Below, piece after piece: positions 1,806 through 1,938 of a stretch of DNA of 64,000 nt; within the stretch, counting starts at the first letter, position 1; each line of letters begins with the position of its first letter. The stretch lies in the NCBI RefSeq assembly GCF_048403405.1, contig NZ_CP183129.1, one strand, 5' to 3'. The position numbers and the translations under genes were made by a program. This stretch comes from Escherichia coli. Lineage in GTDB: Bacteria; Pseudomonadota; Gammaproteobacteria; Enterobacterales; Enterobacteriaceae. Under the pieces are notes generated by a model. That model did not search any database and was not told the DNA's origin. It was given only the letters and a program-made list of their open reading frames with translations.

Positions 1806-1844
1806 GATGCTCTCCCAAATATGAAATCTCTTGCTGGCATTACA

Positions 1845-1870
1845 AGAATCATGCCAAAAATAATCTATTG
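1845..1870 (-). promoter_or_regulatory. Candidate sigma-54 (-24/-12) promoter for pspG
   Basis: Minus strand reads TGGCAT-N5-TTGT about 40-60 nt upstream of the pspG ATG, resembling the GG(-24)/-12 class; pspG is a known PspF/sigma-54 target. Motif read by eye and the -12 element is non-consensus. Confidence 0.45.
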
Positions 1871-1938
1871 ATTTAACAGCAAAACGCCCCGCGACGGTGC
1901 GCAGGGCGTGGTGAATTTGACTACTTTTTGGTGAAAAG

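What the first reader, a model, noticed from the sequence alone, without database searches (positions are those of the whole stretch)
1806..1938. Candidate sigma-54 promoter upstream of pspG with a non-consensus -12 element
The minus strand upstream of pspG carries TGGCAT-N5-TTGT, a -24 GG element with a -12 reading GT rather than GC. pspG is a known orphan member of the PspF regulon. If the -12 really is non-consensus in this strain, it may affect open-complex stability and basal leakiness.
Basis: partly seen in the sequence, partly recalled or inferred. Interest (0 to 1): 0.3.

Follow-up and report, generated by a model that had tools for sequence, protein, structure and literature searches.

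The report
Known pspG sigma-54 promoter, wild-type
This is the ordinary, already characterised sigma-54 promoter of the E. coli stress gene pspG; its odd "-12 GT" is the normal conserved sequence found in K-12 and nearly all relatives, not a peculiarity of this strain.

Summary
The motif is real: TGGCATGATTCTTGT at window 1856..1842 (minus strand), inside the 133-bp dusA-pspG intergenic region (1806-1938). That region is 100% identical to E. coli K-12 MG1655. The same 17-mer is a published sigma-54 ChIP-seq site flagged as an experimentally confirmed pspG promoter. The predicted start is 25 nt upstream of the ATG (window ~1830).

Upstream, in canonical enhancer-promoter order, lie:
- a perfect IHF consensus (1873..1861);
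- the dusA intrinsic terminator (1909..1881);
- two TTCACCA repeats 20 bp apart (1935..1909), with the same pattern and spacing as in the pspA enhancer.

The -12 T is not strain-specific:
- no simple T-to-C variant appears in 5,427 E. coli records;
- T is present in 80 of 85 Enterobacteriaceae species representatives (C in 1), while the 5'UTR has diverged freely;
- pspA has the same TTGTA, and 63 of 72 diverse pspA promoters lack C at -12.

The promoter call is therefore correct but already known, and the hint of a strain-specific defect is wrong. The remaining point of modest interest is that non-C at -12 looks like a conserved signature of psp promoters. Its functional meaning (basal leakiness, ease of activation) is untested.

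The parts
1841..1857 (-). Sigma-54 core promoter TTGGCATGATTCTTGTA (-24 GG at 1855-1854; -12 GT at 1843-1842)
   Evidence: Identical to K-12. Same 17-mer as ChIP-seq site OS40, whose motif centre maps to window 1849. TTG is 85/85 and the -12 base is T in 80/85 species.
1829..1831 (-). Predicted transcription start (+1 at about 1830; 25-nt 5'UTR)
   Evidence: Inferred from -24/-12 geometry. It agrees with the 'distance 25' in Bonocora 2015 Table 1. The mapped start in Lloyd 2004 could not be read.
1861..1873 (-). IHF consensus AATCAATAGATTA (WATCAANNNNTTR), about -43 to -31
   Evidence: Exact match (5 in the window against 2.65 expected, so weak alone). Position-conserved with 0-1 mismatch in 72/85 species. 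pspA has a similar site starting at -45. IHF dependence of psp promoters is from the literature.
1881..1909 (-). dusA intrinsic terminator (10-bp stem, 6-nt loop, T-run) inside the pspG enhancer-promoter loop
   Evidence: -20.3 kcal/mol, z -2.55; I2. A covarying stem plus T-run is kept in at least 83/85 species.
1909..1935 (-). Candidate PspF enhancer (UAS): two TTCACCA repeats 20 bp apart, about -105 to -79
   Evidence: D1. The pattern TTCRCYA-N13-TTCRCYA is exact once in the window and exact once in the K-12 pspF-pspA intergenic region at -118/-98. It has 1 mismatch or fewer in 72/85 species at a fixed distance. Assignment to PspF is inferred.
1810..1816 (-). Shine-Dalgarno GGGAGAG of pspG
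   Evidence: Read. GGGAGAG is widely conserved in the species alignment rows.
1563..1805 (-). pspG coding sequence (80 aa + stop)
   Evidence: RefSeq annotation 'envelope stress response protein PspG' under 100% matches.
1939..2982 (-). dusA coding sequence; its stop codon lies 3 nt from the first UAS repeat

Best explanation
The region is the native, enhancer-dependent sigma-54 promoter of pspG. Shown or published: RNA polymerase-sigma-54 binds TGGCAT-N5-TTGTA as a closed complex. Inferred from sequence: PspF binds the two TTCACCA repeats about 80-105 bp upstream of the start, and IHF bends the DNA at AATCAATAGATTA so that the PspF hexamer contacts sigma-54 and uses ATP to open the promoter. 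Transcription then starts about 25 nt before the pspG ATG. The dusA terminator sits inside this loop. It probably insulates pspG from dusA read-through and helps fix the spacing. The T at -12 is the ancestral, conserved state shared by pspG and pspA promoters, not a mutation of this strain. Most likely (inference, about 50-60%) it is kept by selection. A non-C -12 would weaken the repressive -12 fork-junction lock, allowing PspF-dependent basal expression and quick, strong induction by a scarce activator that is always active and is restrained only by PspA.
For: The intergenic region is identical to K-12. The same 17-mer is sigma-54 ChIP-seq site OS40: FAT 15, EcoCyc 'confirmed', predicted start 25 nt from pspG. 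pspG is up-regulated on sigma-54 overexpression and is known to be PspF-dependent. RpoN holoenzyme binds the dusA-pspG spacer in vitro. Salmonella pspG has a ChIP-chip site TGGCATGATTTTTGTAAG. PspF binds UASs at pspA and pspG, and IHF assists. The IHF consensus, terminator and repeat pair are present and position-conserved in 85 species. The same repeat pattern and spacing occur at the pspA enhancer. For the -12 base: T in 80/85 species while flanking 5'UTR positions carry under 0.5 bit; no C variant in E. coli; 63 of 72 pspA promoters are non-C; only 4 of 42 intergenic E. coli sigma-54 sites lack C, and two of those are pspA and pspG. C at -12 is reported as 96% conserved overall and as needed to restrain basal transcription.
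Against: The mapped start and footprints (Lloyd 2004; Jovanovic/Dworkin/Model papers) could not be read, so +1 and the UAS assignment are inferred. The repeat pattern was derived after seeing both sequences. The literature counts 'one UAS' for pspG and 'two' for pspA, although both show two half-sites, so the mapping is unresolved. The functional role of -12 T is untested: pspA, with the same TTGTA, gave no bypass transcription in vivo. The species samples are related, so the counts are not independent events. Both scans required TGGCAY and a conserved N-terminus, which excludes very divergent promoters.
Confidence: 0.93

Rival explanations
1. The GT at -12 is a strain-specific deviation from a consensus GC in the reference, weakening or deregulating pspG in this strain.
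For: None beyond the fact that GT departs from the general sigma-54 consensus.
Against: The region is 100% identical to K-12. The 40-bp core is identical in 4,571 of 5,427 E. coli records, and sampled variants do not touch GG or GT. No record matches a C version at 99% or better. T is conserved in Salmonella and in 80/85 species.
Confidence: 0.01
2. The promoter assignment is right, but the T at -12 is functionally neutral and conserved only by descent and weak constraint. Sigma-54 tolerates T there, and nothing is tuned by it.
For: Sigma-54 occupancy at pspG and pspA is ordinary (FAT 15 and 21). pspA shows tight activator dependence despite TTGTA. A, G and some C variants occur in divergent pspA promoters, which suggests no strict need for T itself.
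Against: Unconstrained neighbouring positions are saturated with change while T persists in 80/85 species. The transition to the supposedly optimal C is seen only once. Two unlinked promoters of the same regulon share the rare state (4 of 42 E. coli sites are non-C). C is depleted to 9 of 72 in pspA promoters, against about 96% in general.
Confidence: 0.35
3. The motif is a chance match and pspG is really transcribed from another promoter (sigma-70 type, or read-through from dusA).
For: The bare pattern is expected 0.26 times per window.
Against: There is published sigma-54 ChIP-seq, gSELEX and regulon evidence at this exact site. No sigma-70-like site was found on the minus strand of the intergenic region. 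A strong conserved terminator separates dusA from pspG. The motif is invariant across genera.
Confidence: 0.02

Closest known systems
E. coli K-12 pspG (yjbO) promoter, PspF/IHF/sigma-54 dependent (Lloyd et al. 2004; ChIP-seq site OS40 of Bonocora et al. 2015)
   Same: Every base of the 133-bp intergenic region, including the core promoter, IHF consensus, terminator and upstream repeats.
   Different: Nothing in the regulatory region. The only nearby difference is one synonymous-type change in the dusA 3' end.
E. coli pspA promoter (TTGGCACGCAAATTGTA) with PspF UASs and IHF site
   Same: The -12 reads TTGTA. Both have two TTCRCYA repeats 20 bp apart upstream and an IHF-like site starting about -45/-43. 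Both have the same activator.
   Different: The pspA enhancer lies 13 bp further upstream (-118/-98 against -105/-85) and is shared with the divergent pspF promoter. pspA has no terminator in the loop. pspA is reported as 100-fold induced with two UASs, pspG as 20-fold with one.
Salmonella Typhimurium pspG promoter (TGGCATGATTTTTGTAAG; Samuels et al. 2013)
   Same: Same -24 and -12 elements, including the -12 T. Sigma-54 bound in vivo.
   Different: One spacer base and the downstream sequence differ.
Other E. coli sigma-54 sites lacking C at -12 (hydN TGTGAA, ygeW TTGTT)
   Same: Non-consensus -12 base together with sigma-54 occupancy.
   Different: Different activators and regulons. Cross-species conservation was not examined here.

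Membership tests
Sigma-54 (-24/-12) enhancer-dependent promoter | GG at -24 within TGGCAC/T | tested here: met
   TGGCAT at 1856-1851. The anchor is invariant in 85 species, although it was part of the search pattern.
Sigma-54 (-24/-12) enhancer-dependent promoter | GC at -12 within TTGCA/T, exactly 10 bp after the GG | tested here: inconclusive
   The spacing and TTG are met (TTG 85/85 without being specified), but the C is replaced by T. This state is documented in bona fide sigma-54 promoters (pspA and pspG), so it does not exclude membership.
Sigma-54 (-24/-12) enhancer-dependent promoter | Sigma-54 holoenzyme occupancy and rpoN-dependent transcription | not testable with these tools
   Published for the identical K-12 sequence: ChIP-seq FAT 15, EcoCyc-confirmed, up-regulated on sigma-54 overexpression; gSELEX binding.
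Sigma-54 (-24/-12) enhancer-dependent promoter | Correct orientation and short distance to a downstream gene | tested here: met
   The motif is on the pspG strand, and the predicted +1 is 25 nt before the ATG.
PspF regulon promoter | Upstream activating sequence bound by PspF about 80-130 bp upstream | tested here: inconclusive
   The sequence pattern is shared with the pspA enhancer and conserved in 72/85 species. PspF binding to a pspG UAS is stated in the literature, but the footprint coordinates could not be read.
PspF regulon promoter | IHF site between enhancer and core promoter | tested here: met
   Exact WATCAANNNNTTR at 1873-1861, position-conserved. IHF binding itself was not tested here.
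PspF regulon promoter | Drives a psp gene induced by secretin or membrane stress | not testable with these tools
   The downstream gene is pspG. Induction data are from the literature only.

The most novel reading that the evidence does not exclude
A non-C base at -12 (usually T) is a selected, regulon-wide signature of psp promoters (pspA and pspG) across Enterobacteriaceae and beyond. It would weaken the sigma-54 Region I/-12 fork-junction lock, so that the constitutively active, PspA-restrained activator PspF can give basal expression and fast, high-amplitude induction. This would be core-promoter tuning matched to an unusual activator. The T itself has long been visible in the published sequences. 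What may be new is the breadth of conservation and the depletion of C.
Probability: 0.35. Interest if true: 0.4.

Novelty: already known. Interest (0 to 1): 0.15.

Why it matters
For this window it matters little. The finding re-identifies a textbook promoter in its wild-type form, so no strain-specific regulatory change should be inferred. The wider point is small but testable. Two unlinked promoters served by the same unusual activator share a rare -12 base that is strongly conserved, and the consensus C is depleted. That makes the psp promoters a natural case for asking how -12 identity sets basal leakiness and activation threshold at sigma-54 promoters.

Tried and rejected
- Original papers. 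I tried to read Lloyd 2004 (JBC), Green & Darwin 2004 (PMC451634), Barrios 1999 (PMC148710) and Wang/Guo/Gralla 1999 (PMC94214). None is held, so the mapped start and footprints rest on secondary sources.
- Alternative sigma-70 promoter. None was found on the pspG strand in the intergenic region. TGTAAT over the -12 element resembles a -10 hexamer but lacks the key A at position 2, so I rejected it.
- Structured RNA. There is no Rfam match in the region.
- The TGGCAT/ATGCCA inverted repeat bracketing the -12 element. It is not conserved across genera and is broken in some E. coli strains, so it is probably incidental.
- A third UAS-like match in K-12 at the pspF 3' end. It lies in coding sequence and is probably chance.
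- Two consensus TGGCAC-N5-TTGC matches at 51040 and 51925. They lie inside aceB/aceA and are not in the published ChIP tables, so I did not pursue them.
- Engl 2009 (PMC2763126) and the 2025 orthogonal sigma-54 paper (PMC12096077) held nothing on the pspG promoter or on -12.

Full report
**Observation**

On the minus strand the window reads ...TTTTTGGCATGATTCTTGTAATGCCAGC.... TGGCAT-N5-TTGT occurs once, at 1856..1842. GG is at 1855-1854 and GT at 1843-1842.

The finding's span, 1806-1938, is exactly the 133-bp gap between the dusA stop codon (1941-1939) and the pspG ATG (1805-1803). The flanking genes are qor (+), pspG (-) and dusA (-). RefSeq genomes that match at 100% annotate them as such.

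The bare pattern is not statistically remarkable: 0.26 matches are expected per window, and 24 of 100 shuffles give at least one. The case rests on context, conservation and published data.

**Is it strain-specific?**

No. The whole intergenic region is identical to K-12 MG1655 (locus L001).

- A 40-bp core is 100% identical in 4,571 of 5,427 E. coli records and differs by about one base in the rest.
- In six sampled variants the changes fall at -11, -5, the ribosome-binding region, the T-run before -24, the terminator and the IHF spacer. None falls in GG or GT.
- A query carrying the consensus C at -12 finds no record at 99% identity or better.

**Is it the functional promoter?**

Bonocora et al. 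2015 list TTGGCATGATTCTTGTA as sigma-54 ChIP-seq site OS40. It has FAT 15, is assigned to pspG, is flagged as experimentally confirmed in EcoCyc, and has a predicted start 25 nt from the gene.

- Converting coordinates, their motif centre falls on window 1849, the centre of 1857..1841. The predicted +1 is therefore about window 1830.
- The same paper reports pspA and pspG among the few genes up-regulated on sigma-54 overexpression, and cites PspF as their activator.
- RpoN holoenzyme alone binds the dusA-pspG spacer in genomic SELEX.
- In Salmonella, the pspG site TGGCATGATTTTTGTAAG is strongly enriched by sigma-54 ChIP-chip.
- Mehta et al. 2013 state that PspF binds UASs at both the pspA and pspG promoters, that IHF assists, and that pspG has one UAS and is about 20-fold induced.
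- From memory, not verified here: Lloyd et al. 2004 showed that yjbO/pspG expression depends on sigma-54, PspF and IHF and is negatively controlled by PspA. That paper is not held.

**Anatomy upstream**

Reading 5' to 3' on the pspG strand, three elements precede the core promoter and the Shine-Dalgarno GGGAGAG.

1. Two exact TTCACCA repeats, 20 bp start to start, at 1935-1929 and 1915-1909 (about -105 and -85). The first begins 3 nt after the dusA stop (D1).
2. The dusA intrinsic terminator: a 10-bp stem at 1909..1884, a 6-nt loop and a T-run. It folds at -20.3 kcal/mol, z = -2.55.
3. A perfect IHF consensus, AATCAATAGATTA, at 1873..1861, about -43 to -31. This is weak evidence alone: 5 matches in the window against 2.65 expected.

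The K-12 pspF-pspA intergenic region carries TTCGCCA-N13-TTCGCTA at -118/-98. That is the same 20-bp spacing and the only such unit there. It also has an IHF-like AATCAAAAAGATA starting at -45.

The pattern TTCRCYA-N13-TTCRCYA is exact once in the 64-kb window and exact once in the 3-kb pspA locus. I derived the pattern after seeing both sequences, so I treat it as a strong lead that these repeats are the PspF enhancer, not as proof. How they map onto the 'one UAS' and 'two UAS' of the literature is unresolved.

**Cross-species test**

I scanned the species-representative genome collection with a pattern that fixed only TGGCAY and the PspG N-terminal codons.

- It returned 87 loci with a genuine PspG ORF, all Enterobacteriaceae, plus about 30 unrelated chance hits.
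- In the 85 loci with enough upstream sequence, the unspecified positions read TTG in 85/85.
- The -12 base is T in 80, A in 3, G in 1 and C in 1.
- The next two bases are AA in 84 and 81. TTGTAA is present in 79/85.
- By contrast, 5'UTR positions beyond +19 of the anchor and spacer position 7 carry less than 0.5 bit, so unconstrained sites have diverged freely.
- The whole architecture aligns almost without gaps. The repeat pair has 0-1 mismatch in 72/85 species at -79/-80 from the anchor. The IHF core has 0-1 mismatch in 72/85 at -17/-18.
- A hairpin plus T-run with covarying stem sequences (for example CGCCCTGCGC/GCGCGGGGCG, CGCCCGGCA/TGCCGGGCG, GGGCTTGTCA/TGACAAGCC) is kept in at least 83/85 species.

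**Is -12 T a psp signature?**

- In E. coli, only 4 of 42 intergenic sense sigma-54 sites lack C at that position: pspA (T), pspG (T), ygeW (T) and hydN (A).
- A metagenome scan fixed only TGGCAY and the PspA N-terminal codons. It gave 73 distinct pspA promoters with PspA identity from 100% down to about 47%. In the 72 that are in register, the base is T 46, A 12, G 5, C 9. The depletion of C holds in every divergence bin.
- Schaefer et al. 2015 state that C at -12 is conserved in 96% of sigma-54 promoters. They also report that it keeps basal transcription in check in vitro, and that the few promoters showing activator-bypass transcription in vivo tend to lack it. Yet the pspA promoter showed no bypass in vivo.

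**Interpretation**

Shown:

- The motif exists at the stated place.
- It is the K-12 sequence.
- It coincides with a published, confirmed sigma-54 site.
- The surrounding IHF, terminator and repeat architecture is conserved.
- The -12 T is conserved, is shared with pspA, and is not specific to this strain.

Inferred:

- The exact +1 (about 1830).
- That the TTCACCA repeats are the PspF contacts.
- That the terminator insulates pspG and fixes loop geometry.
- That non-C at -12 is maintained by selection.

My preferred mechanism for the last point is speculative. A non-C -12 base would weaken the Region I/-12 fork-junction lock. That would suit an activator that is constitutively active, scarce and restrained only by PspA, and it would allow PspF-dependent basal expression and rapid induction. 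The main rival is that T is simply tolerated and inherited. The saturation of neighbouring sites and the rarity of the T-to-C transition argue against this but do not exclude it, because the sampled species are related and the counts are not independent events.

**Verdict**

This is an already known feature in its wild-type state. Interest is low. The only forward-looking element is the regulon-wide depletion of C at -12, which a simple T-to-C swap experiment would test.

Noticed in passing
window 1396-1506 (- strand): The sRNA PspH (K-12 b4758), derived from the pspG 3'UTR and reported as a sponge of the sRNA Spf, is present and 100% identical to K-12. It ends at a bidirectional hairpin (1405-1427) shared with the convergent qor gene. 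If it is partly co-transcribed with pspG, the sigma-54 promoter would also feed this sRNA; the literature suggests it may have its own promoter.
   Followed up: partly
window 1881-1909 (- strand): The dusA intrinsic terminator lies inside the pspG enhancer-promoter loop, between the upstream repeats and the IHF site, and abuts the second repeat. Its stem covaries and its position is fixed across 85 Enterobacteriaceae species. This suggests a dual role as terminator and as a spacing or insulating element.
   Followed up: partly
window 1835-1856: A 6-bp inverted repeat, TGGCAT...ATGCCA, brackets the -12 element. It is not conserved across genera and is broken in some E. coli strains, so it is probably incidental.
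   Followed up: yes
window 51040-51054 (+) and 51925-51939 (-): Two full-consensus TGGCAC-N5-TTGC matches lie inside aceB/aceA coding sequence. They are not listed among the published E. coli sigma-54 ChIP-seq sites.
   Followed up: partly
window 3339-4295 (- strand): A 318-aa ORF annotated in RefSeq as a DUF2713 family protein, between dusA/yjbJ/zur and dinF. The region 2900-6500 is only 80-90% identical in about half of E. coli genomes, so it is unusually polymorphic compared with its neighbours.
   Followed up: no
L002 432-458 (K-12 pspF 3' end): A one-mismatch copy of the TTCRCYA-N13-TTCRCYA pattern overlaps the last codons of pspF (0.02 expected in that 3-kb locus). It is probably chance in coding sequence, but it was not tested for conservation.
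   Followed up: no
L053, L066, L072, L097, L103 (pspG promoters of Entomohabitans, two Enterobacteriaceae MAGs, Trabulsiella guamensis, a divergent MAG): These are the rare exceptions at -12: TTGAAT, TTGATA, TTGGAT, TTGAAA and, in L103 only, the consensus TTGCAT. L103 has a divergent 93-aa PspG and a poor terminator hairpin. They could serve as natural variants for testing the role of the -12 base.
   Followed up: no
window 1909-1935 vs L002 1421-1447: The literature counts one UAS for pspG and two for pspA, yet both regions show exactly two TTCRCYA half-sites 20 bp apart. The order of the CCA-type and CTA-type half-sites is swapped between pspA and many pspG orthologues.
   Followed up: partly
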